From contig NC_057719.1 in NCBI RefSeq assembly GCF_004010195.1, forward strand, positions 6,782,846 to 6,834,571: DNA of 51,726 bases. The letters are read 5' to 3'. The position numbers were made by a program, and so were the translations under genes. Shown piece after piece: positions 113 to 46,667 of the stretch. The notes under the pieces were generated by a model that ran no database searches, had not been told where the DNA came from, and saw only the letters and a list, made by a program, of their open reading frames with translations. The DNA is from Chiloscyllium plagiosum. Taxonomy: Eukaryota. Every line of letters starts with the position of its first letter. Position 1 is the stretch's first letter.

Positions 113-242
113 CATTCCTGAAGAAGGGCTTATGCCCGAAACGTCGATTCTCCTGTTCCTTGGATGCTGCCTGACCTGCTGCGCTTTTCCAGCAACACAT
201 TTTCAGCTCTGATCTCCAGCATCTGCAGTCCTCACTTTCTCC
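113..242 (+). mobile_element. Mini Penelope-like terminal element, family A (about 130 bp, hammerhead core at 5' end)
   Basis: attcCTGAAGAaGGGCttatGCCCGAAAcgtc...ctcactttctcc, near-identical to copies at 12034 and 25498; flanked by direct repeat cattcctga (113-121, 242-250). Confidence 0.8.
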
Positions 243-5780: not shown

Positions 5781-6573
5781 GGTGATGATTTCGAATTGAC
5801 AATATCACCATTAAATCAGGTTCAACCTGACACGAGAAACAATGTGTGGGGATGCTGTCTCACATCCAAATCATTTAATAACAGTGTTAATTTGTGGAAT
5901 TCTTTATTGCAGACGGCTGTCAAGGCTGGATTGTGGAGCAGGTTTTTAATCAGTAAGGATATCAAGGGTATAAGAAAAAGGCAGGAAATTGGAGTTGAAT
6001 CAGCCATAATCTCATTGAATGGCAGAGCAGATTTGATAGGCTGAATGGTCTTATAAAATGAACCCAAAGTTTAAAGTGCAATTTTTAATGTAGACAAAGA
6101 TGCAACCTATAGTTTTAAGAACACTTTACATTTACTGCTCAAGAATTGGAGTCTTAGAACTCATTGTCTCCGTTGTAAGAATTTGAATTTGGAGCCATGC
6201 AGTGAAAAGCAGGTACTTTTGCCTGGCCCTAATTTTGTAACTACTAGTCCCTAACCATTAATTACTGTATAGCTGCACCGCCAAAGAGTATTGCTATTTT
6301 GCCTCTTCAATGAATATATCTGCTGTCTTGGATTTAAACTCATTGAATTGTAATTGCTACATTGGCAAGATTAAATACAAGTCGAGATGTGTATGGAAAC
6401 AATCAGTGAGCCTCTTTTCATAGCAAAGACTGCAGATGCATGCCAAAGACTACAATACGTTGTCACAATCTCAACATTATTGTGCTCTGGGTAGAACTAA
6501 AGTGGGAACTAAGGAAAATCCATAGTGTCCTTCTATTTCTGACATACATGGTTTTAAACAAACAGCACCTAAT

Positions 6574-8445: not shown

Positions 8446-9262
8446 TATGTGGAGGTGTTAGTGTTGGACCGGAGTGCACTAAGTTAAAAATTACAACACC
8501 AGGTTATAATCCAACAGGTTTATTTGAAAGTACTTGCTTTCGGAGCACTGCTCCTTCATCAGGTAGTGTGGAGCAGGATCAGAAGACATAGAATTTATAG
8601 CAAAAGATCACAGTGCCATGCATGCAGCTGATACAATACATTGAACAAATCTAGATTGCTGTTAAGTCTTTCATCTTTTAGAATGGTTGCAGGTTTCAGT
8701 TTATTAATATGTAAATCCCAGAACTTCTTTCAAGTCAGATTCTCTGGATAAGATTTTATAAAAAAAGGTGATATCTCAGCTGAGACAATGCATTAAAGTT
8801 GCAAGGTTAGAGTCTGTAGGCATCCCAATCTTGAGTTAGACTGGTTCTATTTCCAAAGTAGGAATTTATAAAATGTTACAAGCATTGACTGCCTGCAGAT
8901 TGTGTGCTTTTGAACAAAATAGAATGTATCCGCAATTTCAATTCTGCAAATGCAAATTCACCGCAGAGACTTAGATGCGTGCATGAGAGAGAGAAAGACA
9001 GAGAGAGAGAAAGAAAAGAGTATTTGTGTGAGAGAGCATTTGCGTGCATGTGAGAGTGTGTGTTTGCGTGTGTGCACCTCTTGGGGGGGGGGGTGTGGCT
9101 GAGAGAGCGTGTGTATGAGAGAAAGTCTGCGTGAGTGTGCGAGTCCATAAGAATACACATGTATGTGTATGTGTGTGTTTGAGAGTGTACAGTGTAGTGG
9201 GGTCACCTGTAGTGTGACATGAACCCAAGGTCCCGGTTGAGGCCATCCTCATGGATTCGGTA
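8446..9262 (-). mobile_element. PLE family B 3' region (ORF C-terminus, CA-rich UTR, hammerhead-like core, tail)
   Basis: ORF end HEDGLNRDLGFMSHYR; inverted homolog of 10550-11314; core at about 8531-8566. Confidence 0.8.
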
Positions 9263-9278: not shown

Positions 9279-9355
9279 TTCCTGATGAAGGGCTTATGCC
9301 CGAAACGTTGATTCTCCTGCTCCTCGGATGCTGCCTGACCTGCTATGCTTTTTCT
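9279..9355 (+). mobile_element. PLE family A fragment
   Basis: ttcCTGATGAaGGGCttatGCCCGAAAcgttgattctcc. Confidence 0.75.
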
Positions 9356-10400: not shown

Positions 10401-11314
10401 CCAGATGGACAGTTGTGTTCCCTCCCAGTCTGGGAACATTTCAGTGATCAGGGACATTTGGCCTTGGATCTTTGGGTGACCATCCTCCAAGGCGGACTTT
10501 GGGATACGCAACACCACACACTGGCCAACCTGAGGCTGATAGCTAAGTTCAGACCCCATGAAGATGGCCTCAACTGGGACCTTGGGTTCATGTCATAATA
10601 TAGGTGACCCCACTACACTATGCACTCTCACATACATACACTTACACACTCACACAGACCCTCTCTCATACACACACACACACCTCCCACACTCTCTCCC
10701 ATGCACACACCGTGTCGCAGGCTTATAGTCTATCCCCCTTGCACTTTACCAAGCACGTGCACACACACAGTCTCTCACACGCACACTCACATGCATGCAC
10801 ACACACACTCTCTCTCTCATGCATACATGCAAATATAAGTCTATGGAGTGAATTTGTATTTGTTGAATATTTGCAGATACATTCTATTTTGCTCAAAAAG
10901 CACACAATCTGCAGGCAGTCAATCCATGTAATATTTTATAAGTTCCTACTTTGGAAATAGAACCAGTATGACTCAAGATTGGTATACATATAGACTCTAA
11001 CCTCACACCTTTAATGTACCGTCTCAGCTGAGATGTCACCTGTTTTTATAAAATCTAAGTTATCTTGTGAATGTGACTTGAAAGAAGTTTTGGGATTTAC
11101 ATATTAATATACCGAAAACTGCAACACATTCTAAAAGACAAAGACTTAACAGCAATCTAGGTTTGTTCAATACAGTATATCAAATCAGTTGCATGACACT
11201 GTAAAATCTTTTGCGATAAATTCTGTGTCTTATGATCCTGCTCCACAGATACCTGATAAAGAAGCAGTGCTCCGAAAGCTATTGTTTCCAAATGAACCCG
11301 TTGGACTATAACCT
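10401..11314 (+). mobile_element. PLE family B 3' region
   Basis: ORF 10395-10598 SLPVWEHFS...LIAKFRPHEDGLNWDLGFMS (C-terminal end of GIY-YIG region); ends in a degenerate hammerhead core and ttggactataacct. Confidence 0.8.
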
Positions 11315-12290
11315 TGATTTGGAGATACTGGTGTTGGACTGGGATGTACAAAGTTAAAAATCACAGAACACCAGGTTTAATTGGAAGCACTAACTTTCGG
11401 AGCGCTGTTCCTTCATCAGGTGGTTGTGAAGTACACAGTTGTAAGACACAGAATTTATAGCTAAAGCTTACAGTGTGATGTAACTGAAATTATACATTGA
11501 AAAATACCTTGATTGTTTATTAAGTCTCTCATCTGTTAGAATGACCATTTAGTTTCACTTCTTTCATATGTAAATCACAAAACTTTTTTAAAAAGTTACA
11601 TTCTCAGGTTAACTGTAACAATTGGTGTCAGTCAGATAAGATGTTGAAGGTGTTAGCCCCCTCTGTTCCCTGTCTGTGCCAATGTAACTCTGCAAGTACA
11701 AATTCACCCCACAAACGTATATGTGTATGTGTGTTTTTGTGTGTGTCCCCGTCTGGGGTAGGGGATTGAGAGTGTGAGAGAGTGTGTATATGTGAGTGTA
11801 AAGTGTCTAAGTCTGTGAGAGAATCATGTATGTGTGTGGGAGTGTGTATAGTGCACTGGTGGTCACCTGTAGTGTGGCATGAACCCAAGGTGCCGGTTGA
11901 GGCCCTCCCTATGGGTACAGAACTTAGCTATCAGCCTCTGCTTGGCCACTTTTCCCTGCTGCCTGTCCTGAAGTCCGGCCTTGGAGGATGGTCACCCGAA
12001 GATCTGAGGTCGATTGTCCTGGACCACTGAAGTATTCCTGAAGAAGGGCTCATGCCCGAAACGTCGATTCTCCTGCTCCTTGGATGCTGCCTGACCTGCT
12101 GCACTTTTCCAGCAACACATTTTCAGCTCTGATCTCCAGCATCTACAGTCCTCACTTTCTCCACTGAAGTGTTCCCCAACTGGGAGGGAACACTTCTGTC
12201 TGCTGATTGTTGTGCGGTGCCCATTCATCCATTGCCTTAGCCTTTGCTCAGTTTCACCAATACACCATGCCTCAGGGCATTCTTGCCTGC
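11315..12290 (-). mobile_element. PLE family B 3' region, interrupted by a family A insert
   Basis: Tail, core at about 11388-11423, ORF fragment MNGHRTTISRQKCSLPVGEHFS. Confidence 0.8.
12034..12162 (+). mobile_element. Mini PLE family A insert
   Basis: Full 129-bp unit; TSD ccactgaagt (12024-12033, 12161-12170). Confidence 0.85.
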
Positions 12291-12297
12291 AGCATCC

Positions 12298-13009
12298 TTA
12301 CTTGCAGAGTTACATTGTACTTTGCTCAAAAACTGCAAGAATGCATGAGAGACTCTGTTAACTCACTTTTTAGATTAGAATCAGTCTAAACATTATGGCA
12401 CAGACAGGGAACGCAGGGGGCTAACACCTTCAACATCTTAACATCTTATCTGGCTGTCATCAATTGTTACAGTTAACCTGAGAAGGTAACTTTTAAGGAG
12501 AAAGTGAGGTCTGCAGATGCTGGAGATCAAAGTTGAAACTTTATTGCTGGAACAGCACAGCAGGTCAGGCAGCATCCAGGGAACAGGAGATTCGACGTTT
12601 CGGGCACAGGCCCTTCTTCAGGAATTCTTTAGGCATTCCTGAAGAAGGGCCTGTGCCCGAAACGTCGAATCTCCTGTTCCCTGGATGCTGCCTGACCTGC
12701 TGTGCTGTTCCAGCAATAAAGTTTCAACCAAGGTAACTTTTAAAGAAGTTTTGTGATTTACATATGAAAGAAGTGAAACTATCATGGTCATTCTAACACG
12801 AGAGACTTAACAAACAATCAAGGTATTTTACATCACACTGTAAACTTTTGCTATAAATTCTCTCTTACAATTGTATACTCCACAACTACCTGATGAAGGA
12901 GCGGCGCTCAGAAAGCTAGTGCTTCCAGTTAAACCTGTTGGACTACAACCTGGTGTTGTGTGATTTTTAACTTTGCCCACCCCAGACCATCACCAGCTCC
13001 TCCACATCA
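12298..13009 (+). mobile_element. PLE family B 3' region, inverted partner of 11315-11700, abutting the CpG island
   Basis: Core CTGATGAaGGAGCggcGCTCaGAAAgcta at 12890-12918, then tail ending ccacatca. Confidence 0.8.
12497..12728. mobile_element. Palindromic PLE family A insertion (young)
   Basis: Near-perfect arms of about 94 bp around tctttaggc; 35-nt tail on the left arm; TSD aaggtaacttttaa (12483-12496, 12730-12743). Confidence 0.88.
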
Positions 13010-13420
13010 CGTGTGCACCCTACGCAGCCTGGAGCGGCACCTGAGGACGTCATGCGTCATGGCGTAGGGACGCGCCGTGCGTGCGTAAACCAGCGCCAAG
13101 ATGGCGGCGGGGACCAGCCATTGGTTGCTGTTACGCTATCAGGCGCCATTCCTACCGCCCGAATTCCTCCCGCCGGACCGAAGGGCCTGGAGGCCGCTCT
13201 GTGGGCGTCAGCAGGTCGAAAAACACCGACTTTACCTCAGGAATTTATTGGCCGGGCCGAGCTGCGGGGGGTTGGCTGGAGGGGGAGGCATTTCAGCGGC
13301 TGTCGTTGTTCGTTCGAGGGGCCCATGGGGACCTGAGGCGGAGGGAGGTAATGCTCGGCCGGATTGTCTCCTTGGCGACGGCCAGGGAGATCGTGGCGTT
13401 ATTGAGCGATGTTTCCCCCC
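13010..13420. promoter_or_regulatory. CpG-island promoter of an unidentified gene
   Basis: Sharp GC and CpG enrichment; CRE-like gacgtca (13046-13052) and tgcgtca; YY1 motif CAAGATGGCGGC (13097-13108); two reverse CCAAT boxes (13120, 13247); repeat-free sequence downstream. Confidence 0.8.
13345..13353 (+). other. Candidate first-exon splice donor GAG|GTAATG
   Basis: Donor-like site near the 3' edge of the CpG island, followed by a transition to T-rich intron-like sequence. Confidence 0.45.
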
Positions 13421-16400
13421 CTCCATCCCTTTTTTTTAAATAAGCACTTTTTATTCCAGGGGGTGGGGAAAAACCACGAGCGCTGGGGGAAAAAAAATCC
13501 CTTGTGTTCGTCAACAGCCATCTTTCCATGACATGAAGTGTAAGTAGACAAAAACCCAACTGTATCTTTATGTATTACATTTCTGCTGCTGCTTCACTCG
13601 AGAACATTGTTTCCTATACATTACAACTTATTTCTCTTCCACTTCCCCCTCCCTGACAAAGTGAAATTGCAAACTCGGCAAAAGATTAGGGAGGCTTGAA
13701 TAGTTTCGCTTGTTTATTTTTGTCCTATTTTAAAAGTCCATCTCGAACTTTTGTGTGTACATCTACATACATATAGATAAATATTATGTATTTATAACGT
13801 GGTGTTGTCCTTGAAATACAGTCCAATGTGTCTTTGTCCTCACCGCTTTTATTTATGCTAAATTTTGGTGTTTGGTTGGAACCTGGACTCCTGACATTGC
13901 AGCTAAAGTTTGGTTTGAATGCACCAAGTGGGCGAAATTTTGATTTTTTTTAAAGTGTTTGGGGTTGTGATTATCATTGTTCTAACTGAAAGCGACTTGA
14001 AATGTTTGTATATTGTATCAAATTTAAATGCAACTCTCCTCTCATTGTCCTACCCAAGTTTTATACTCAACTGTCTTAATAAAGTAAATTTTCTTTTAAG
14101 AAAAGGAGCTGTACTTCTACCCTTTCCGGCCAGCCTGCTGCTCAATGAGTGTTTGTTTTTCTCTTTAATGGGTAATTGTGTCCGTCTACACTTGTTTCCC
14201 CCTGCTGCGCACATTGGTTCTTTAAGTTGTTTCTTTTTATTTGCAGATTTTGTTTTGGAACATTCGCCCTTTCCCTCTTAAGATGTTGCTGTTTTCATGT
14301 AATGTCATTGTATTGCATTGTCATCCTCTGCTATAGGGAGCAGTGTTAGGCAACACCGCAGTGTCCTCAACCTCTGTCCTCTGGTAGGATAATGGTCTTT
14401 ACCTTGTGATGGTGAAAGCAAATCTCAAATTCTCGTATCAAGGATTTTTCTTGTTTAAATCCCATTTGATAAACATACTGAATTCTCCTGTTAACTTCAC
14501 TTTTTTTTAGGCTTATCTCAGCGTAAGTGTAACTTGTAGAAATGGGAATGTGTAAATGTCGCGGCCTTTCCCTAAAAGAAGCCTGTTTGGTTTTGGTCAT
14601 GCCTGAGCTTTGCTCAAATTGGTCGTTTCAGCAGATAGCATTTAATCCAAGGTGACAAGGCAACTGTTTCCAAGGGTAGACAACTCTGGAGAAAGCCAAA
14701 GCCATGGACCTGCCACTTGACCTTTTGACAGTTAGGTGGTCGAATGAAAAGATGCACCAGCAATTAACCCAGATTATGAAGTTCGCACACATCTTCGTGA
14801 TTTACACAGTCCGTTTGAAGCAATGCACAACGGCGTCTTTCAGTCTCGCTGCGCTGCAGATGTTGTCTATAAGTTCAGGACTGCAAAACTGGATGAACTA
14901 AGTCGATGCGTTTAATGTCGCTCGTCCATTCGTCGAAAACAACGCTTGTGCTATCTATGAAAGACTGTCGATGCTTCAGCAGTTTCGCACTCTTCCAAAA
15001 ATAGAATGCAAGGGATTGTGGGCAGGAGTCTTGTGATTTTTTCTCTCTCTGTATAATGTAAACCAGATGCTATGTGCGGAGGAATTGCCACGCAGCTCAA
15101 ACCGTGTACGATTAAATCACTTACGCCCACTTCGGAGGCACGGGATCTGATTACTGACTACCGACCTTAAATTGGATGTTTGTTTTGAAACAATCAATGA
15201 ACGGATTTCGGCGGCTGAGTTAAATAGGACAGAAGGACAAAGATGCAAAGGACAAAGTTGATTTTTTTTCTTGTTATGGCATGCTAACAAATACGTTTGC
15301 AAAACGAATACTGGAAACAACTTAGTCTAATGTATTCATTTACAATGATATTTGAGGCGTGGTCCTACAAAGTAACTGCCCGATAAGGCGTTTTTTTTTG
15401 TTATATATTGCTCCATATATTCAAATGCGTTTTCAACGCAAGGTATTAGACCTTCCTAAAGATACATTGTTATTTAAAAGTGACAATCGTGCGCTTCAAA
15501 TCAATTACACACAAGGAATTCCAAGTTAACTCATCCTTTTATGTACGGGGACCGCAGTTGGAAGCATTCGGCTATTGGATTGCTGTAATGTTTGAAAATA
15601 AACCTTATCTCATTGAAATAATTGTCCATTACACAATCTTTTCGTGTTTATATGTTCTGACATGTATAGACTCATTAACAAAATGGCCTTGAATTGCACT
15701 GATTCTTTATTTTAATGAAACGGTTATATTTTTAAAACTTTTGATTTTCATAATTGAAGTTTTAATGTATTTGGGGATCAGCAGAATATGTTACTACAAT
15801 AATATATTGTATGAATTCTGGTTGCATAGGGAGTGTTACAGATAGAAAAAGTTATATTCAGTGCAAAATTTTTCTATAGATTTTCAACAATTTTCTTAAG
15901 GTCTGATCATGTTACCCCATAAAGATAATTGGCTCTGCACTGGTGAAATACTCATTAAGTATTTTAACTTGATCTAATAAATGTGTGTTAAGTACTATTA
16001 AGCTCCAAAGACTGACTGCTTCACATGGAGGGATTAGTTATTACCACATACTTATCCTTAATGTAACTTGCTTCATGTGACATAATCCAACCTCTCAAAT
16101 TTCAAACTGTTTGCATACAAATTGTAATGAAAAGAGGGAATAAAAGAGCGCTGATCTGTGTTAGTTACATGAATTGATACAGTAATGAGGGTGTATGTTC
16201 ATACTAGTGATTGAACTCTGCTTTGCCAAAAGAGAAATTAATCACTGATATAGCGTAATCCTTTGATTATAGATTAGAAAATGCCTTGATGACTTTCTGC
16301 ATTTGAACATTAAATGCATGTTTTTATTGTATGTAGCCCAAATAATCAACTGGTTAGACGAAACTGGTATCTTTACATTCTTAAAGATTAAATTATACAC

Positions 16401-17303
16401 CTAGTTTACTATACACTATAGTTAAAATTTATCCAGTAAATAAAGCTCCACTTGCTGAATCTTCAGCTACAAGTTGTAACACTAAATTCATTCTGGTTGA
16501 CCTTTTCTGGATTTTCTCTATTAAGGAACTAAACTGGACACTATCCTGTATGCAACCACAAGTATTGCATTCATAACTTATTGAATTCTACTAGCAGTTC
16601 AACACATGCTGATAAGGCTTGCAACTCTAGTTTACGGCCTTTAAAATTCAGCATCTGTATATGTGACTTTTTTGTTTCAACCCTCGCCTATAAGGAGGTA
16701 ACCCATACATGATGTACATATGCCTGAAATTGCAGCACTAATCCTTCATTTATCCACAATGATGGATATCTGCAAGATACATAGTGTGTCTACATCAGGT
16801 TGTATCCTGTCTGTTGCGTTGCTTTTGAGCCCAGACACTCTGATAAGCCATCATCATACTGGTCATTACATTTTGATCCTTGTTAGTTCCTTATTGTAAT
16901 TTCATTTTTATGTAATTTCTACTATGGATTACTAGCTATTATATAATTGATTCTTTTTTTAAATTTGCATTTTTGCCCTTGCTACTCTTTTCCCAGTTGA
17001 GCTTCTTGTGAAGCAATTGTCATCAAACTCCACAGTCAGATGTGTAATAATCTTGCAAAATCAAACAGTGGATGTTGGAAATCTGAAATAAAAACAAGGT
17101 GTTAGCTATGCTGGCATATGTGGAATAATAATTTGTTAGTCAGAACTGCAGAGATGTGTTTATCCACAGCCACCAGTTTTAAATATTAACTTGCATAGAA
17201 TCAAAGAATGGTTACTATGCATTTTGCTGATCATGCCTATGTCACAGACATTTTGCTTGTGCCATACCTCCGCCCTATCTTGGCAAGACTCTGCAGATAA
17301 TTA

Positions 17304-17530
17304 GTTGAAACTTTATTGCTGGAACAGCACAGCAGGTCAGGCAGCATCCAGGGAACAGGAGATTCGACGTTTCGGGCACAGGCCCTTCTTCAGGAATCCT
17401 GATTCCTGAAGAAGGGCCTGTGCCCGAAACGTCGAATCTCCTGTTCCGTGGATGCTGCCTGACCTGCTGTGCTGTTCCAGCAATAAAGTTTCAACTTTGA
17501 TCTCCAGCATCTGCAGACCTCACTTTCTCC
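17304..17530. mobile_element. Palindromic PLE family A insertion (young)
   Basis: Arms of about 95 bp around a 2-nt spacer; 35-nt tail on the right arm; TSD ctctgcagataatta (17289-17303, 17530-17544). Confidence 0.88.
17401..17438 (+). ncRNA. Minimal type I hammerhead ribozyme motif (mirror copy on minus strand at 17361-17398)
   Basis: Stem I gattc/gaatc, CTGAAGA plus extra A, stem II GGGC-ctgt-GCCC, GAAA, palindromic ACGT stem III, GUC triplet (predicted cut after 17433). Confidence 0.75.
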
Positions 17531-17717
17531 TCTGCAGATAATTATCTGATTTTCTTTAAAATGCAATTGAATCTCCCTCTTATAATCTCAGGCAGTGCAT
17601 TCCAGTTCTTAACCACATGTTGTCTAAACGGGTGTTTTTATGCCCCTTCTGGTTCTCCAATCATATTATTGTGCACTGCTTAATATTTCTACTGTTGGGA
17701 ACAGTTACTCCCTACCT

Positions 17718-18351: not shown

Positions 18352-19918
18352 GTTTTGGATGTAAGTTTGCTCGCTGAGCTGGAAGGTTCATTTCCAGATG
18401 TTTTGTCACCCTATTAGGTAACATCTTCAGTGGACCTCCAGGAAAAGCACTGCTGATGATTCCTGTTTTTATATGTTTGGGTTTCTTTGAGTTGGTGATG
18501 TCATTTCCTGTTTTTCTCAGGGGTTGGTAGATGGGGTCTAACTCGATGTGTTTGTTGATGAGAATTTCGGTTGGATTGCCATGCTTCTAGGAATTTTCGT
18601 GCGTGTCTCTGTTTTGCTTGCCTTAGGATGGGTGTATTGACCCAGTCGAAGTGGTGTCCTTCCTCATTCGTATGTAAGGATACTAGTGAGAGAGGGTCAT
18701 GTCGTTTTGTGGCTAGTTGATGTTCGTGTATCCTGGTGGCTAGTCTTCTGCCTGTTTGTCCAATGTAGTGTTTGTTACAATCCTTGCACAGTAGTTTGTA
18801 AATGACATTAGCTTTGCTTGTTGTCTGTATAGGGTCTTTCAAGTTCATTATCTGGTGTTTTAGTGTGTTGGTGGGCTTCTGGGCTACCATGATGCCAAGG
18901 GGTCTGAGTCGTCTGGCAGTCATTTCTGAGATGTCTTTGATGTAGGGCAGAGTGGCTAGGATTTCTGGACATGTTTTGTCTGCTTGTTTGGGTTTGTTGC
19001 TGAGAAATTGGCAGACTTTGTTCATAGGGTACCCATTCTTTTTGAATACACGGTATAGGTGATTTTTCTCTGCTTTGCGAAGTTCCTCTGTGCCGCAGTG
19101 TGTGTGTTGGCTCGTTGAAATAATGTTCTGATGCAGCTTCGTTTATGGATGTTGGGATGTTGCTTCTGTAGTTCAGTATTTGGTCCGTATGTGGCATTTT
19201 CCTGTAGACACTAGTTTGAAGTTCTCCATTGGCTGTTTGCTCTACTGTGACATCTAGGACTGGCAGTTTGTTGTTTTCCTCCGCTTTAGCGAATTTTATG
19301 CCAGTAAGGGTATTATTGATGGTCTTGAAGGTTTCCTCTAATTTGTTTCGTTTAGTGATGACAAAGGTCATCACCCACCAACACACTAAAACAGCAGCTA
19401 ATGAACTTGAAAGACCCTGTACAAAGAACAAGCAAAACTAATATCATTTACAAAATACCATGCAAGAACTGTAACAAACACTACATTGGGCCACCAGGAT
19501 ACATGAACATCAACTAGCCACAAAAAGACATGACCCACTCTCACTAGTATCTTTACATACAGATGAGGAAGGACACCACTTTGACTGGGCCAACACATCC
19601 ATCCTTGGACAAGTCAAACAGAGACACGCACGAGAATTCCTAGAAGCATGGCATTCCAACCGGAACACACTCAACAAACTTAGAGTTAGACCCCATCTAC
19701 AGCACCCTGAGAAAAAGAACAGGAAATGACATCACCAATCCAAAGAAACCCAAACATTTGAATAGAAAGCAGGAATCATCAGCAGTGCGTTGCCCAGAGG
19801 CCCGCTGAAGATGTTACCTAGCAGGGTAATGAAATGTCTGGAAATGAACCTACTAGCTCAGTGAGCAAACCTACTTCCAGAACTTCAACCTGAGCTACAA
19901 ATCTTCTCAAAATTCGCT
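18352..19918. mobile_element. PLE family C insertion: about 1 kb inverted arm (18352-19367, minus) plus direct arm (19368-19918, plus)
   Basis: GIY-YIG motif NVIYKLLCKDCNKHYIGQTGRRLATRIHEH and RT thumb LPVLDVTV..TSVYRK; degenerate hammerhead cores at about 18392-18431 and 19802-19841; TSD aacccagttt (18346-18355, 19922-19931). Confidence 0.88.
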
Positions 19919-20526: not shown

Positions 20527-20736
20527 GAGTGTGTGGTGCTGGCAAAGCACAGCAGGTCAGGCAGCATCTGAGGAGCTGGAGAATTGAAAGTTCGGGCATG
20601 AGCCCTTCATCAGGAGTGGGTTTTCCCTGATGAAATGTCTATTCTCCTGCTCCTTGGAAGCTGCCTGACCTGCTGTGCCTTTCCAGCACCACACTCTCAA
20701 CTCTGATCTCCAGCACCAGCAGTCCTCACTTTCTCC
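20527..20736. mobile_element. Palindromic PLE family A insertion (older)
   Basis: Diverged inverted arms, right-hand tail, TSD ttttatacact (20511-20521, 20738-20748). Confidence 0.78.
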
Positions 20737-23224: not shown

Positions 23225-23670
23225 TAGTTTTAAAACAGCAACTAATGAACTTGAAAGACCTTATGCAGGCAACAAGCAAAACTAATGTCATTTACAAAAT
23301 ACCTTGCAAGAACTGTAACAAACATTACATTGGACAAACAGGCAGGAAACTAGCCACAAAATGACATGACCCCCTCTTGCTAGTATCCTTACATACAAAT
23401 GAGGATAACTTTGGGACAACACATCCATCCTAGGACAAGCCAAACAGAGACGTGCACAAGAATACCTAGATGAATGACATTCCAACTGGAACTCTATCAA
23501 CAAACACATTGATTCGGGTCCCATTTACCAGTCCCTGAAAAAAAGAACAGGAAATGACCTCACCATAGGAAATGACCACCAACCCTAGGGAACTCTCAAT
23601 AGAAAGTGGGCTACACCACCAGTGCTTCATTCAGAGGTTCACTGAAGATGTTACCTAGTATGGTGATGGA
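23225..23670 (+). mobile_element. PLE family C fragment (GIY-YIG to hammerhead remnant)
   Basis: NVIYKIPCKNCNKHYIGQTGRKLAT; ctgaagatgttacctagtatggtgat at about 23642. Confidence 0.8.
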
Positions 23671-23672
23671 AT

Positions 23673-23855
23673 GTGAATTGGCCATACTAAATTGCTAATT
23701 GCCATACTAAATTCAGGTGAATTGGCCATGCTAAATTGCCCGTAGTGTTAGGTAAGGGGTAAATGTAGGGGTATGGGTGGGTTTCGCTTCGGCGGGTCGG
23801 TGTGGACTTGTTGGGCCGAAGGGCCTGTTTCCACACTGTAATCTAATCTAATCTA
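23673..23855 (+). mobile_element. 5'-truncated HE1-type SINE
   Basis: Matches the 3' half of 30314-30634; (aatct)n tail. Confidence 0.8.
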
Positions 23856-24552: not shown

Positions 24553-25375
24553 GTAGCTGTGACCCCACTTTCAAGAAACTATGAACCTGCACTCCAAGGT
24601 CTCCTTGTTCAGTAACACTTGTAGGACCTTACCATTAAGTATATAATTCCTCCCCATATTTACTTTTCCAAAATGCAGCACCTCACATTTGTCTAAATTA
24701 AACTCCATCTCCCACTCCTTGGCCTGCTGGCCCATCTAATCAAGATCCCGTTGTACTGAGGTAATCTTCGCTAACTGCGGCACCTCCAATATTGATGTAA
24801 TCTGCAAATGTACCTCCTTTGTTCACATCTAAATCATTTGTATAAATGACAAAAAGTAGTGGACTCGGCACCAATACTTGTAGAACACTACTGGTCACAG
24901 GCCTCCAATCTGAAAAACAACCCTGCACCACACTCTGTCATTCTACCTTTGAGCCAGTTCTGTATCCAAATAGTGAGTTCTCCCTGTACTCCACGAGATC
25001 TAACCTTGTGAACCAGTCTCCCATGGGAAACCTTGTCAAACGCCTTACTGAAATACATATAGATCACGTCTACCGCTCTGCCCTCCTCAATCTTCTTTGT
25101 TACTTCAAAAAACTCAATCAAGTTTGTGAGACATGATTTCCCACACACAAAGCCATGTTGGCCATCCCTAATCAGTCCCTGCCTTTCCAAATACATGTAC
25201 ATCCTGTCCCTCAGGATTCCCTCCAATAATTTGCCTCCCACCGACGTCAGGCTCACTGGTCTATAGTTCCCTGGCTTGTACTTAGCACCTTTCTTAAACA
25301 GTGGCACCACATTAATGAACCTCCAATCTTCCGGCACCTCACCTGTGACTATCGATGATACAAATATCTCAGCAA

Positions 25376-25607
25376 GAGCTGGAAATGTGTTGCTGGAAAA
25401 GCGCAGCAGGTCAGGCAGCATCCAGGGAACAGGAGAATCGACGTTTCGGGCATAAGCCCTTCTTCAGGAAGCCCTTCATTCCTGAAGAAGGGCTTATGCC
25501 CGAAACGTCGATTCTCCTGTTCCCTGGATGCTGCCTGACCTGCTGCGCTTTTCCAGCAACACATTTTCAGCTCTGATCTCCAGCATCTGCAGACCTCACT
25601 TTCTCCT
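25376..25607. mobile_element. Palindromic PLE family A insertion (young)
   Basis: Near-identical inverted arms, right-hand tail, TSD tcagcaagag (25369-25378, 25616-25625). Confidence 0.87.
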
Positions 25608-25893: not shown

Positions 25894-25954
25894 ATGGAAA
25901 TGTGTTGCTGGAAAAGCGCAGCAGGTCAGGCAGCATCTAGGGAACAGGAGAATC
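25894..25954 (-). mobile_element. Single-arm PLE family A fragment starting at the predicted hammerhead cleavage site
   Basis: Reverse complement starts gattctcctgttccc; TSD tgagggg (25887-25893, 25955-25961). Confidence 0.75.
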
Positions 25955-26590
25955 TGAGGGGCCCTATTTTCTCCTTAGGTAATCTCTTGTCCTTAATGTA
26001 TTTGTAAAAACCCTTTGGATTCTCCTTAACTCACTTTGCCAAAGCTATCTCATGTCCCCTTTTTGTCCTCCTGATTTCCTTAAGTATACTCCTACAGCCT
26101 TTATACTCTTCTAAGGATTCACTTGATCTCTCCTGTCTGTATCTGACATGCTTCCTCCTTTTTCTTAACCAGACTCTTGATTTCTCTAGTCATCCCGCAT
26201 TCAGTACACCTACCAGCCTTTCCTTTCACCCTGACAGGAATATACCGTTGCTGGACTCTCCTTATCTCATTTCTCATTTTCCAACTGTCCCTTTCCCTGT
26301 GAACATCTGATCCATTTCAGCTTTTGAAAGTTGTTGCATAATACTGTCAAAGTTGCAATTCCTGTAATTTAGAACTTCAACTTTTAGATCTGGTCTATCC
26401 TTTTCTATCACTATTTTAAAACTAATAGAATTATGGTCACTGGCCCCAAAGTGCTCCCTCACTGACACCTCAGTCACCTGCCCTGTCTTATTTCCCAAGA
26501 GTAGATCAGGTTTTGTATCTTCTCTCGTAGGTACATCCACATACTGAATCAGAATTTTCTTGTACACCTTCAACAAATTCCTCACCATCT

Positions 26591-26789
26591 AAGTTAAAAA
26601 TCTCAACACCAGGTTATAATCCAACAGGTTTAATTGGAAGCACTAGCTTTCGGAGTGTCGCTCCTTCATCAGGTGGAGCAGTGCTCCGACAGCTGGTGTG
26701 CTTCCAGTTGAACCTGTTGGACTATAACCTGGTGGTGTGATTTTTAACTTTGTATACCCCAGTTCAACACTGGCATCTCCAAATCAAGG
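26591..26789. mobile_element. Palindromic PLE family B mini-insertion
   Basis: Inverted arms, right-hand tail, TSD ctcaccatctaa (26581-26592, 26790-26801). Confidence 0.83.
26641..26675 (-). ncRNA. Minimal hammerhead ribozyme motif, family B
   Basis: Minus strand cac-CTGATGA-a-GGAG-cgaca-CTCC-GAAA-gcta^gtg (stem I cac/gtg, palindromic AGCT stem III). Confidence 0.7.
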
Positions 26790-27545
26790 CTCACCATCTA
26801 AACCCTTAACACTATGGCAGTCCCAGTCTAAGTTTGGAAAGTTAAAATCCCCTACCATAACCACCCTATTATTCTTAGAGAGAACTGAAAGATCCTTACA
26901 AATTTGTTTCTCAATTTCCCTCTGACTATTGGGGAATCTATAATACAATCCCAATCAGGTGATCATTCCTTTTCTTATTTCTCAGTTCCACCCAAATAAC
27001 TTCCCTAGATGTATTTCCGTGAATATCCTCCCTCTATACAGCTGTAATGCTATCCCTTATCAAAAATGCCACTCCTTCCTCTCTTGCCTCCCTTTCTGTC
27101 CTTTCAGCAGCATTTGTATCCTGGAACATTTAAGCTGCCAGTCCTGTCCATCCCGGAGCCATATTCCTGTAATTGCCATGATATCGTAATCTCATTTCCT
27201 CACCATGTGCTGAGTTCATCTGCCTTTGCTGTTAGGCCCCTTGCATTGCAATAAATGCAGTTTAATTTATCACTTGTTCTCTGTTTTGTCCCTAACTGCC
27301 CTGACTATATGGCTCACTCCTTTTCCCAACTGTACCAGTTGCCAATTGATCTCTTTTCCCCCCTACATCGCTGTGTCCCATCTCCCTCTCCCCTTCTTCC
27401 CCATCTCCCCCCTTACTCATTTAAATCTTCCTGAGCAGTTCTTGCAGATCTCCCTGCCAGTATATTAGTCCCCTTCCAATTTGGGTGCAATCTGTCCATC
27501 CTTGTACAGGTCACTTTTACCCCAGAAGAGATTTCAATGATCCAA

Positions 27546-34588: not shown

Positions 34589-34818
34589 GGCAGAAATGGG
34601 TACTGCAGATGCTTGAGATCAGAGTCAAGATTAGAGTGGTGCTGGAAAAGCACAGCAGGTCAGGCAGCATCCGGAAGAGCAGGAAAATCGATGTTTCAGG
34701 CAAAAGCCCTTCATCAGGAATGACCCTGATGAAGGACTTTTGCAAGAAATGTTGATTTTACTGCTCCTGGATGCTGCATGACTGCTGTGCTTTTCCAGCA
34801 CCACTCTAATCTTGACTC
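34589..34818. mobile_element. Palindromic PLE family A-related insertion
   Basis: Inverted arms, left tail, TSD tgcactccatgg (34579-34590, 34820-34831). Confidence 0.8.
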
Positions 34819-35309
34819 ATGCACTCCATGGGCCAAATGGCCTGCTTCCACATTAGGGATTATATGTGACTTGGAAGTAAAGTTGAAGATATCCAATTTG
34901 AGGCAAAGCAGAAAATGGTACTGATGTAATAATCAGTCTACACGGAAGAGTTGTTGAAGTGGCCAGAGAAGGATGAGAACAAGGAATATTACATATTTTC
35001 CATAAAAATACAGGCATAGCTAAGACCTGTAAAAACTTCTTATTTGAAAGAAGAAAGATAATAAGGTGGAGGAAGGTGAATGGTAACTGGTTTGAACTCT
35101 GTTCAAGGAAAAAGTGAAGACCCCCTCAGATTGTCTTGGTGGAGACTAGAGATGTAGAGAGATTGGTGAAGAAATGGCTAGGACCAGGAAATTGGAAACT
35201 AAAAAGTGGAGGTCATCAGAAGAGTCACAGATCTTGTTAGGGAGTCATTCTGAAAAGGAAGGAAAATTATGTCAAAATTAGAAGGACTGGCTTTGTGTGT
35301 GGGAAATCA

Positions 35310-36648
35310 TGTCTTCCCAGCCAGATTGTTGTTGTTTTTTCTTGAAGCAATGATAAATTGATGAAGGCAGAGCAGTAGCTGTTGCCTGAACACTTCAGGA
35401 ATGCATTTGACAAGGTTCCATATGGGAGCTAGCTGATTGGATACAAAATTGGCTTGAAGGTGGTGATAGAGTTTGCTTTTTGAACTGGAGGCCTGTGACC
35501 AAAATGTGCCATAAGAATCAGTGCTGGGTGCACTGCTCATTCATTATATAAATGATTTGGACATGAATAAAGGAGGCACGGTTAATAAGTTTGCAGTGGG
35601 CAGTGATGAAGATTCTCTGGGTACAATAAGACCTTGTTTGGATGGGTCGGGGGCCAAGGAGTGGCAGATGGACTTTAATTTAGAAAGATGCGATGTTGCA
35701 TTTTGGTAAGGCAAGACTTGTACAGTTAATGGTAGGTCCCTGGGGAGTGTTGGTGAACAAAGGGGTTCAGGTGTATAGTTCCTTACAAGTGGAATCGCAG
35801 GTAGACAGTGGTGAAGAAGGCGTTTGGCGTGCTTGCCTTCATTGGCACTGCCCCATCATGACTAATGTTGGACTGAGATCGACCAGATCAGATGTCGTAT
35901 GACACCAGGTTAAAGTCCAACAGGTTTATTTAAAATCACAAGCTTTTGAAACGCTGCCCCTTTGTCAGGTGAAGTGACATTCATTTGACGAAGGGTCACA
36001 CTTCGAAAGCTTGTGATTTCAAATAAATCTGTTGGACTATAACCTGGTGTTGTGACGTCTGACCTTCATTGGTCATAACCTCCAAACTCCTACACTCAAT
36101 GTTATGGGCCTGTACAGGACATCAGTGAGATCACTTTTGAAATGCTGCATACAATTTTGGTCACCCTTCTATAGGAAGGATGTCAGAGGAGAAAAGACTT
36201 TCAAGGATCTTGCTGGAACTGGATGGTTGAGTTGTAGGGAGAGGCTGAATAGGCTGGACTTTATTCCCTGGAGTGTCAGAGGCTGAGGGGTGACGTTATA
36301 AAATTATAAGGGTATGGATAGGGTGAATAGCCAAAGTCTTTTTCCGAGGATAGGAGAATTCAAAACTAGAGGGCAGAGGTTTAAGATGAGCAGGGAAAGA
36401 TATAAAAAGGACCTGAGGAGTAATTTTTTTCATGCAGTGGATGGTGCATTTATGGAATGAGCTGCCGGATGAAGTAGTGGAGGTAGATACAATTATAACA
36501 CTTTAAAAGGCGTCTGGATGGGTATATGAATAGGAAACGTTTAGAGGGACATTGGCTAAATGCTGGCAAATAGGATTCTGTCACGTTGGGATATCTGGTC
36601 CATGCATATAAGTTGGACTGATGAATCTGCTTTTGTGTTGTATGACTT
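35310..36648 (+). mobile_element. Old CR1 3' half
   Basis: YINDLD..VNKFA, EWQMDFN, CIQFWSPFYRKDV, WNELP; CR1 tail. Confidence 0.8.
35846..36062. mobile_element. Palindromic PLE family D (B-related) insertion
   Basis: Arms acaccaggttaaagtccaacagg / ctgttggactataacctggtgt, degenerate tgacgaa..cgaaagctt cores, TSD ccttcattgg (35836-35845, 36063-36072). Confidence 0.75.
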
Positions 36649-46444: not shown

Positions 46445-46667
46445 GGAGAAAGTGAGGACTGCAGATGCTGGAGATCAGGGTTGAGTGTATAGCGCTGGAA
46501 ATGTGCAGCAGATCAGACAGTATCCGATAAACAGGAGTTTCGGGCATTAACCCTTCATTAGGAACCTTGATCCTGATGAAGGACTTATGTCCGAAACATA
46601 GATTCTCCTGCACTTCGAATGCTGCCTGACCTAATGTGCTTTTCCAGCACCATACACTCGATTCCGA
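46445..46667. mobile_element. Palindromic PLE family A insertion (older)
   Basis: Diverged inverted arms, left tail, TSD ttcctgggatg (46432-46442, 46668-46678). Confidence 0.78.

What the first reader, a model, noticed from the sequence alone, without database searches (positions are those of the whole stretch)
17361..17438. Minimal hammerhead ribozymes with covarying helices in 3-4 Penelope-like families
Seen: the core CTGAnGA+N..GAAA is conserved while the helices change compensatorily. Family A: stem I attc/gaat, stem II GGGC/GCCC, ACGT (12635-12670, 17401-17438). Family B: cac/gtg, GGAG(C)/(G)CTCC, AGCT (26641-26675 minus, 12887-12921). Family C: cca/tgg, GTTACC/GGTAAY (19802-19841). Established: PLE termini carry minimal type I hammerheads whose very short palindromic stem III needs dimerisation. 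All copies here have one extra nucleotide between A9 and stem II. I cannot tell whether these shark families are already described.
Basis: partly seen in the sequence, partly recalled or inferred. Interest (0 to 1): 0.75.

Follow-up and report, generated by a model that had tools for sequence, protein, structure and literature searches.

The report
Shark Penelope elements' minimal hammerhead ribozymes
These are real copies of the small hammerhead motif, a predicted self-cutting RNA already known from the ends of Penelope-type jumping genes, present in over 100,000 exact copies in what is likely a shark genome; the commonest start point of the copies is the motif's first bases rather than its predicted cut site, which likely means they were copied from uncut RNA that starts there.

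Summary
Families A and B sit at the ends of Neptune-type Penelope-like elements (PLEs), and C at the end of a Penelope/Poseidon-type one. A fourth family (D) occurs elsewhere in the genome. Exact genome counts: A 87,506, B 17,087, C 1,369; reversed controls 0. Helices covary between families and in subfamilies (few independent events). Minimal PLE hammerheads, their palindromic stem III and the extra nucleotide after A9 were published in 2014 (PMC4209133), so this is a new member of a known kind. Corrections: the 4-bp stem I holds only for a minority A subfamily, and the cited B (12887) and C (19802) copies are decayed. Added: 62 of 152 random A arms start at the motif's front edge and 2 near the cut site; 25 of 27 inverted pairs have one tailed and one tail-less arm. 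This fits two-ended priming on uncut RNA starting at helix I. Cleavage is untested, and a cap-G signature was not supported. The scan already noted the same motif and reading on other shark DNA and in this window.

The parts
17289..17303 (.). Left target-site duplication (15 bp, edges ambiguous by 1-2 nt) of the family A fold-back insertion
   Evidence: Same 15-mer at 17530-17544
17304..17397 (-). Family A short (tail-less) arm, Neptune-type PLE end
   Evidence: (I12)
17362..17397 (-). Minimal type I hammerhead, family A (CCTGT-loop subfamily, 4-bp stem I); predicted cut after GUC between 17366 and 17365
17402..17437 (+). Minimal type I hammerhead, family A; predicted cut between 17433 and 17434; the stem I + stem II fold is the MFE of the monomer (-7.1 kcal/mol)
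17402..17531 (+). Family A long arm including the ~35-nt PLE tail (about 17496-17531)
17530..17544 (.). Right target-site duplication
12497..12728 (.). Second family A fold-back insertion (tailed arm minus, tail-less arm plus; 14-bp TSD at 12483-12496 and 12730-12743), nested in the 3' UTR of a family B copy
12635..12670 (+). Hammerhead, family A
12590..12625 (-). Hammerhead, family A
12887..12921 (+). Hammerhead, family B, decayed (G10.1-C11.1 pair lost); the element's tail ends near 12995
26641..26675 (-). Hammerhead, family B (cac/gtg, AGCT, CUA cut triplet) in a fold-back insertion 26591-26786 with a 12-bp TSD (26581-26592, 26790-26801)
19802..19841 (+). Hammerhead, family C (Poseidon-type), CpG-decayed; A9, the extra U and G10.1 spell ATG
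19361..19729 (+). Broken 3' end of the family C ORF (GIY-YIG C-terminus), about 75 nt upstream of the hammerhead
18352..19437 (-). Inverted partner arm of the family C insertion: RT C-terminus and GIY-YIG remnant, hammerhead at 18394-18433
   Evidence: GIY-YIG E 0.0013, below the curated cut-off
25375..25606 (.). Family A fold-back insertion (TTAT-loop subfamily, stem I of 2 bp + U.U); hammerheads at 25436-25470 minus and 25478-25513 plus
114..242 (+). Solo family A stub starting at the hammerhead's front edge
9279..9352 (+). Solo family A stub
12034..12162 (+). Solo family A stub (TCAT loop)
20531..20736 (.). Decayed family A fold-back insertion
34592..34828 (.). Older family A fold-back insertion (TTTT loop)
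46445..46655 (.). Older family A fold-back insertion; plus-strand copy has stem II GGAC/GTCC (both sides changed)
8531..8565 (-). Hammerhead, family B (stem I tac/gta, U16.1 lost)
11388..11422 (-). Hammerhead, family B, decayed; inverted partner at 11250-11284 plus
35937..35971 (-). Hammerhead, family B variant (GCTT), decayed
23639..23675 (+). Truncated family C hammerhead

Best explanation
These are minimal type I hammerhead motifs in the terminal repeats of three Penelope-like retrotransposon families; they are predicted to cut only weakly, as dimers or with protein help, and most genomic copies were likely reverse-transcribed from uncut RNA whose 5' end likely coincides with the first bases of the motif. 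Shown: the motif, its place before and after an RT + GIY-YIG ORF, two 3' ends about 35 nt apart, long target duplications, and the distribution of 5' ends. Inferred: transcription starts at or near the A at -4 (5' strand of helix I). The element's protein nicks both target strands and primes each on the RNA at one of two internal start sites (about +90 and +125). When it uses the copy of those sites near the transcript's 5' end, it runs off after 95-130 nt, giving solo stubs or head-to-head pairs with one tailed and one tail-less arm. Inferred from the literature: the ACGU/AGCU palindrome lets two motifs form the missing helix III; cutting would remove the first ~32 nt of the RNA. Inserted copies then decay neutrally, and selection on the fold acts only in source elements.
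For: Exact counts A 87,506, B 17,087, C 1,369, reversed controls 0. L322: hammerhead at 2986, matches to residues 1-907 of RT + GIY-YIG protein P0009, hammerhead at 6196. GIY-YIG passes the Pfam cut-off for A. CX2-5CxxC linker in A and B, none in C. In 99 A rows selected without using the core, common non-CpG variants fall at N7, loop II and +30/+32, and none in the core. Both-sided changes: A stem II pair 2 is A-U in 7 of 9 A-bearing copies, and 34 of the first 100 of 4,746 genome matches, counted by eye, against 7 of 257 background; C stem I is C-G 35, U-A 11, mismatched or wobble 4; stem III is C-G in A and C, G-C in B. 5' ends: 62 of 152 in -10..+4 (mode -4) and 2 of 152 in +26..+30; 28 of 98 solo arms also start at the edge. 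9 of 30 copies that run on into the ORF start there too. Tandem junctions return to -3..-5 from inside the ORF (L324, L326; four joints in run X15). 25 of 27 close inverted pairs are one long plus one short arm. In vitro precedent: two internal RT starts, both strands extended, uncut RNA as main template, protein-assisted cleavage (PMC11167929).
Against: No cleavage or transcript-start data: two lays of a single-cell poly(A) run showed no place where many molecules begin, and those reads are mostly host RNA carrying embedded copies. A cap-derived extra G is not supported: G before attc 15,481 versus A 9,366, but in 30 + 30 loci the G was mostly explained by the inverted arm or the target duplication, and by eye about 2 untemplated G versus 2 untemplated A remained. 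The majority A subfamilies have only 2 bp + U.U + 1 bp in helix I, so their activity is doubtful. Compensatory changes are few independent events, and the Fisher P values count copies, not events. Unconstrained co-folding did not give the helix III dimer for any of 6 copies. Family C shows little front-edge pile-up (3 of 21 in -10..-2; 13 extend more than 80 nt upstream).
Confidence: 0.7

Rival explanations
1. The ribozyme cuts and the RNA circularises (retrozyme or rolling-circle model). Copies come from religated circles or multimers, and the front-edge pile-up is a stall or template-switch point rather than the RNA's 5' end.
For: Proposed in PMC4209133. Head-to-tail units of 438 and 411 nt with one hammerhead each and an internal deletion exist (L323, L328). 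Family B has 5 of 65 starts at +28/+29; by eye, 8 of 62 scored lines start at +25..+28 and 54 at +29..+33 (38 of 100 lines dropped as a longer subfamily or deletions).
Against: RT meets the fold from its 3' side, so a structural stall should leave ends downstream of the motif, not after it has been fully copied (inference). The edge rate is 4.1 per nt against 0.4 per nt at the cut site. The B step is also what stalling at the 3' strand of helix I would give.
Confidence: 0.17
2. The fold is kept mainly as an RNA pairing or protein-binding element: the palindrome joins two templates for two-ended priming, and cutting is incidental or lost in most subfamilies.
For: Both arms of most inverted pairs copy the same RNA stretch (34 of 54 paired arms start at the edge), which needs two templates or two passes. 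Helix I is weak in most A subfamilies while the palindrome is kept. The Anolis protein is a predicted dimer, and hammerhead mutants still insert in vitro.
Against: The catalytic core shows no subfamily-level change in A and is shared by four families, which pairing alone would not require. Inverted truncated copies also occur in Naiad elements, which lack canonical hammerheads (PMC8557442).
Confidence: 0.1
3. The motif is a chance match inside a high-copy repeat, or the inserts are MITE- or miRNA-like hairpins.
For: Rfam finds no hammerhead family, only sub-threshold miRNA hairpin hits on the fold-back inserts. One ancestral chance match would be multiplied by copying.
Against: Four families with different flanks carry the same core with different complementary helices at the same place in the element. 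The two arms are unequal (one tail) and continue into a PLE ORF.
Confidence: 0.03

Closest known systems
Minimal type I hammerheads (min-HHR) of metazoan PLE pLTRs, including fish Xena, Poseidon and Neptune (Cervera and de la Pena 2014, PMC4209133; parts 1-2 of 4 read)
   Same: [quoted passage not shown]
   Different: Host (sharks are not named in the text read; supplements not opened). Copy number is over 100,000 exact against about 4,000 (coelacanth) and 9,000 (Xenopus), with different search methods. Helix II is 4-5 bp in A and B; helix I is 2-4 bp.
Poseidon element of Anolis carolinensis, PAc (Frangieh et al. 2024, PMC11167929; parts 1-2 of 4 read)
   Same: Two RT start sites defining a tail, both strands primed, uncut RNA as template. 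In family C an ATG lies at the start of stem II, 28 nt before the cut (26 in PAc), and copies end about 108-110 nt after it (111-118 in PAc).
   Different: PAc was assayed in vitro; here only genomic footprints. In family A the ORF's homologous Met lies about 165 nt after C3.
Neptune and Penelope/Poseidon clades of endonuclease-bearing PLEs (Craig et al. 2021, PMC8557442; passages read)
   Same: RT followed by GIY-YIG, pLTRs, inverted 5'-truncated copy, 30-40 bp tail on one end; CX2-5CxxC linker in A and B as in Neptune, absent in C as in Penelope/Poseidon.
   Different: Extreme share of stubs under 140 nt ending at one point. Clade assignment here rests on the linker, not a tree; Nematis also has the linker.
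Non-LTR retrozymes (Li, Clavereau and Pollet 2026, bioRxiv 10.64898/2026.07.22.740005; parts 1-2 of 5 and passages read)
   Same: PLE-derived, hammerhead-bearing, reported in one chondrichthyan (mean consensus 363 bp); L323 and L328 look like such units.
   Different: The window's copies are solo or head-to-head, not tandem arrays.

Membership tests
Minimal type I hammerhead (min-HHR, PMC4209133) | Core CUGANGA, GAAA and NUH cut triplet | tested here: met
   GUC in A and C, CUA in B; non-CpG core positions 90-98 of 99 in core-unselected A rows
Minimal type I hammerhead (min-HHR, PMC4209133) | Helix II closed by G10.1-C11.1, preceded by one unpaired nucleotide | tested here: met
   G-C 221 and G.U 35 of 269 in A; extra nucleotide in 10 of 10 strict hits
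Minimal type I hammerhead (min-HHR, PMC4209133) | Palindromic, loop-less helix III | tested here: met
   ACGU in A and C, AGCU in B; CpG decay in many copies
Minimal type I hammerhead (min-HHR, PMC4209133) | Short helix I (4-5 bp in the paper's Schistosoma families) | tested here: inconclusive
   4 bp in the CCTGT subfamily, 3 bp in B, C and D, 2 bp + U.U + 1 bp in most A copies
Minimal type I hammerhead (min-HHR, PMC4209133) | Compensatory changes in helices | tested here: met
   A stem II, C stem I, B stem I, stem III across families; few independent events, no tree-aware test
Minimal type I hammerhead (min-HHR, PMC4209133) | Self-cleavage as dimer or with protein | not testable with these tools
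   No assay; no read-end pile-up
Rfam hammerhead families (full-size) | Match to an Rfam covariance model | tested here: not met
   No hammerhead family among 11 hits at E up to 5
Endonuclease-bearing Penelope-like elements | Single ORF with RT then GIY-YIG | tested here: met
   A: L321 and L322 match P0009 from residue 1 to 907, broken, with an assembly gap in L322; B: L332 residues 214-842; C: RT end and GIY-YIG remnant in the window
Endonuclease-bearing Penelope-like elements | pLTR with hammerhead on both sides of the ORF | tested here: met
   Family A, L322; not seen for B or C among the 18 stretches fetched
Endonuclease-bearing Penelope-like elements | 30-40 bp tail on one end and inverted truncated partner | tested here: met
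   3' ends cluster near +89 and +125; 25 of 27 pairs asymmetric
Neptune clade (A, B) versus Penelope/Poseidon (C) | CX2-5CxxC linker before GIY-YIG | tested here: met
   Present in A and B, absent in C, one copy each
Neptune clade (A, B) versus Penelope/Poseidon (C) | Position in RT phylogeny | not tested
   No named reference set was at hand
Non-LTR retrozymes | Head-to-tail tandem non-coding units each with a hammerhead | tested here: not met
   Window copies are solo or head-to-head; two outside loci do show such units

The most novel reading that the evidence does not exclude
In shark Neptune elements the hammerhead is the very first structure of the transcript (+1 lies in helix I), so it works as a 5'-end switch that can clip off the capped leader, not as a circle-making device. 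Its palindrome pairs two uncut RNAs so that both nicked DNA strands are primed at once, and priming at the 5'-proximal start sites has produced about 700,000 ribozyme-bearing stub arms that record both the transcription start and the two RT starts at near-base resolution.
Probability: 0.3. Interest if true: 0.55.

Novelty: new member of a known kind. Interest (0 to 1): 0.27.

Why it matters
The pairing of minimal hammerheads with PLEs is known, so the finding as written is ordinary. What these ribozymes do in endonuclease-bearing PLEs is still described as unclear (PMC8557442). This genome offers a very large natural record of insertion ends that supports in vivo what was seen in vitro for one lizard element: two internal RT starts and uncut RNA as template. 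It also gives natural helix I variants (4 bp versus 2 bp + U.U) for a direct activity comparison.

Tried and rejected
Rfam scan: no hammerhead hit; miRNA hits are below threshold and reflect the fold-back shape. Cap-G idea: not supported. Cut-site peak in A: 2 of 152. In the 100 listed lines (4,248 matches), by eye about 5 per nt start at +26/+27 and about 9-10 per nt at +28/+29, after setting aside 5 lines that look like core-skipping deletions: at most a twofold bump. RNA evidence: no RNA holder listed; lays of run X19 show both strands, 92-98% of reads running on into unlike sequence and no molecule-start pile-up; X20 laid nothing. MAFFT misaligned family C against A and B, so pair counts were done per family in scripts. 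A very relaxed de novo descriptor gave mostly SINE/LINE noise; only A, B, C and D were kept. Co-folding does not predict the helix III dimer. Pfam gave GIY-YIG for 2 of 12 fragments and no RT hit on short pieces. Paper searches for Penelope + shark + Neptune (1 paper, listing only), hammerhead ribozyme + shark + retrotranspos (3) and Penelope + Chiloscyllium + transposable (2) found no description of shark PLE hammerheads. The whale shark genome paper only lists Penelope as present (passage). Lunse et al. 2017 is not held and was seen only through the review PMC6765202 (passages). Dfam and Repbase could not be consulted, and no supplements were opened, so named shark families may exist.

Full report
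Observation. The motifs are at the stated places. The core pattern occurs 22 times in the window against 4.7 expected. With family patterns the window holds 14 A, 7 B and 3 C copies, many decayed. The focal stretch 17361-17438 is the centre of a fold-back insertion, 17304-17531: two family A arms head to head, each starting at the 5' strand of helix I, one with a ~35-nt tail and one without, inside a 15-bp target duplication. Positions below count from core base C3 as 0; the predicted cut lies before +28 in A, +29 in B and +34 in C.

Abundance. Exact patterns give 87,506 (A), 17,087 (B) and 1,369 (C) matches in the 3.56-Gb genome, with 0 in reversed controls. In 80 evenly placed 10-kb stretches (773 kb without gaps) there were 152 A arms, which extrapolates to about 700,000. 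The closest named proteins are from carpet sharks at 66-74% identity, so the host is likely such a shark.

Parent elements. Upstream of A and B lie the ends of RT + GIY-YIG ORFs with a CX2-5CxxC linker, which PMC8557442 gives for Neptune and Nematis; C follows a GIY-YIG end without it. Three of 186 A tail ends continued into shared sequence, which matches the N-terminus of a 909-residue RT + GIY-YIG protein. Locus L322 shows the canonical hammerhead-ORF-hammerhead layout, 3,210 nt apart, broken and with a gap. No such complete layout was seen for B or C in 18 stretches. A fourth, older family D (stem I gtt/aac, stem II GGGTC/GACCC) occurs outside the window.

Is the fold selected? In 99 A copies picked without using the core, frequent non-CpG variants occur at N7 (A 36, T 59), in loop II and at +30/+32, and none in the core, which shows only 2-10% scattered decay. 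Both-sided changes: A stem II pair 2 is G-C 250, A-U 7, A.C 2, G.U 7; C stem I pair 3 is C-G 35, U-A 11, other 4; B stem I pair 3 is C-G 50, U.G 9, U-A 3. Genome-wide, 34 of the first 100 of 4,746 copies with A at that stem II position carry the matching T (by eye). These are few subfamily events, not many independent ones. Across families helix I, helix II and the stem III palindrome all differ in sequence yet pair. Against the reading: most A copies have only two pairs, a U.U mismatch and one more pair in helix I (177 of 269), and unconstrained co-folding did not give the dimer helix in 6 of 6 cases.

What the ends say. A 3' ends cluster near +89 and +125, and 25 of 27 close inverted pairs combine one of each. 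5' ends: 62 of 152 in -10..+4, mode -4, against 2 at +26..+30; 4.1 per nt at the edge versus about 0.28 background. Solo arms (28 of 98) and ORF-containing copies (9 of 30) show the same edge, and tandem junctions jump from inside the ORF back to -3..-5. B shows a similar edge (16 of 65 in -14..-2) and 5 starts at +28/+29; C mostly extends upstream. Because RT meets the fold from its 3' side, stopping after copying all of it is best read as run-off at the RNA's 5' end (inference). The template there reads TCATTC, which resembles an initiator consensus (recalled, not tested); D. virilis Penelope has a TATA-less internal promoter and a start in the pLTR (PMC2377424 passages; PMC8557442). A cap-G signature was not supported, and RNA reads gave no start or cut pile-up. 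A weak excess of starts at or after the cut site (by eye) could be a minority of cut templates or stalling at helix I.

Comparison. PMC4209133 already describes these minimal motifs in PLE pLTRs of fishes and other animals, including the extra nucleotide, the palindrome, opposite-strand pairs, no monomer activity and low dimer activity. PMC11167929 shows two internal RT starts, priming of both strands, uncut template and protein-assisted cleavage for an Anolis Poseidon. A 2026 preprint reports PLE-derived retrozymes in one chondrichthyan. My three shark-directed searches found no description of these families, but Dfam, Repbase, supplements and Lunse et al. 2017 were not seen.

Earlier scan notes report the same motif, the front-edge pile-up and two-ended priming on other shark DNA and in this window. 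I had reached the reading before looking (note), and they are not independent support.

Verdict. Real feature, correctly interpreted, new member of a known kind. Interest 0.27, carried mostly by the copy number and the end-mapping clue to an open mechanistic question.

Noticed in passing
L129 minus 9861, L271 minus 290, L327, L043 and others: Fourth, older hammerhead family D (stem I gtt/aac, 5-bp stem II, GUU triplet) with a body distantly similar to A; parent ORF not traced.
   Followed up: partly
L323:2929-3367 and L328:5816-6227: Head-to-tail family A units of 438 and 411 nt (hammerhead, tail, ORF start, jump to 3' UTR), retrozyme-like.
   Followed up: partly
L330:8434-8671: Family C hammerheads repeated 51 nt apart on the same strand plus a mirror copy; a natural cis-dimer candidate.
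   Followed up: no
window 19811-19813; L330:6809: In family C the 'extra' nucleotide is the T of an ATG that opens at least 40 codons, as described for Anolis PAc; not shown to be the true ORF start.
   Followed up: partly
window 12497-12728: A family A fold-back insertion sits inside the 3' UTR of a family B copy.
   Followed up: yes
listing (e.g. G000:C1:12520644, C1:24390821): Five of 100 lines look like precise skips from the CTGA of the core to the GATT after the cut site, removing the hammerhead body; possibly RT slippage over the hairpin.
   Followed up: no
window 13000-13440: CpG-rich stretch with an ATG in a GC-rich context right after the family B tail; may be a host gene start.
   Followed up: no
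window 25894-25954: A family A piece begins at the predicted cut site (+28).
   Followed up: partly
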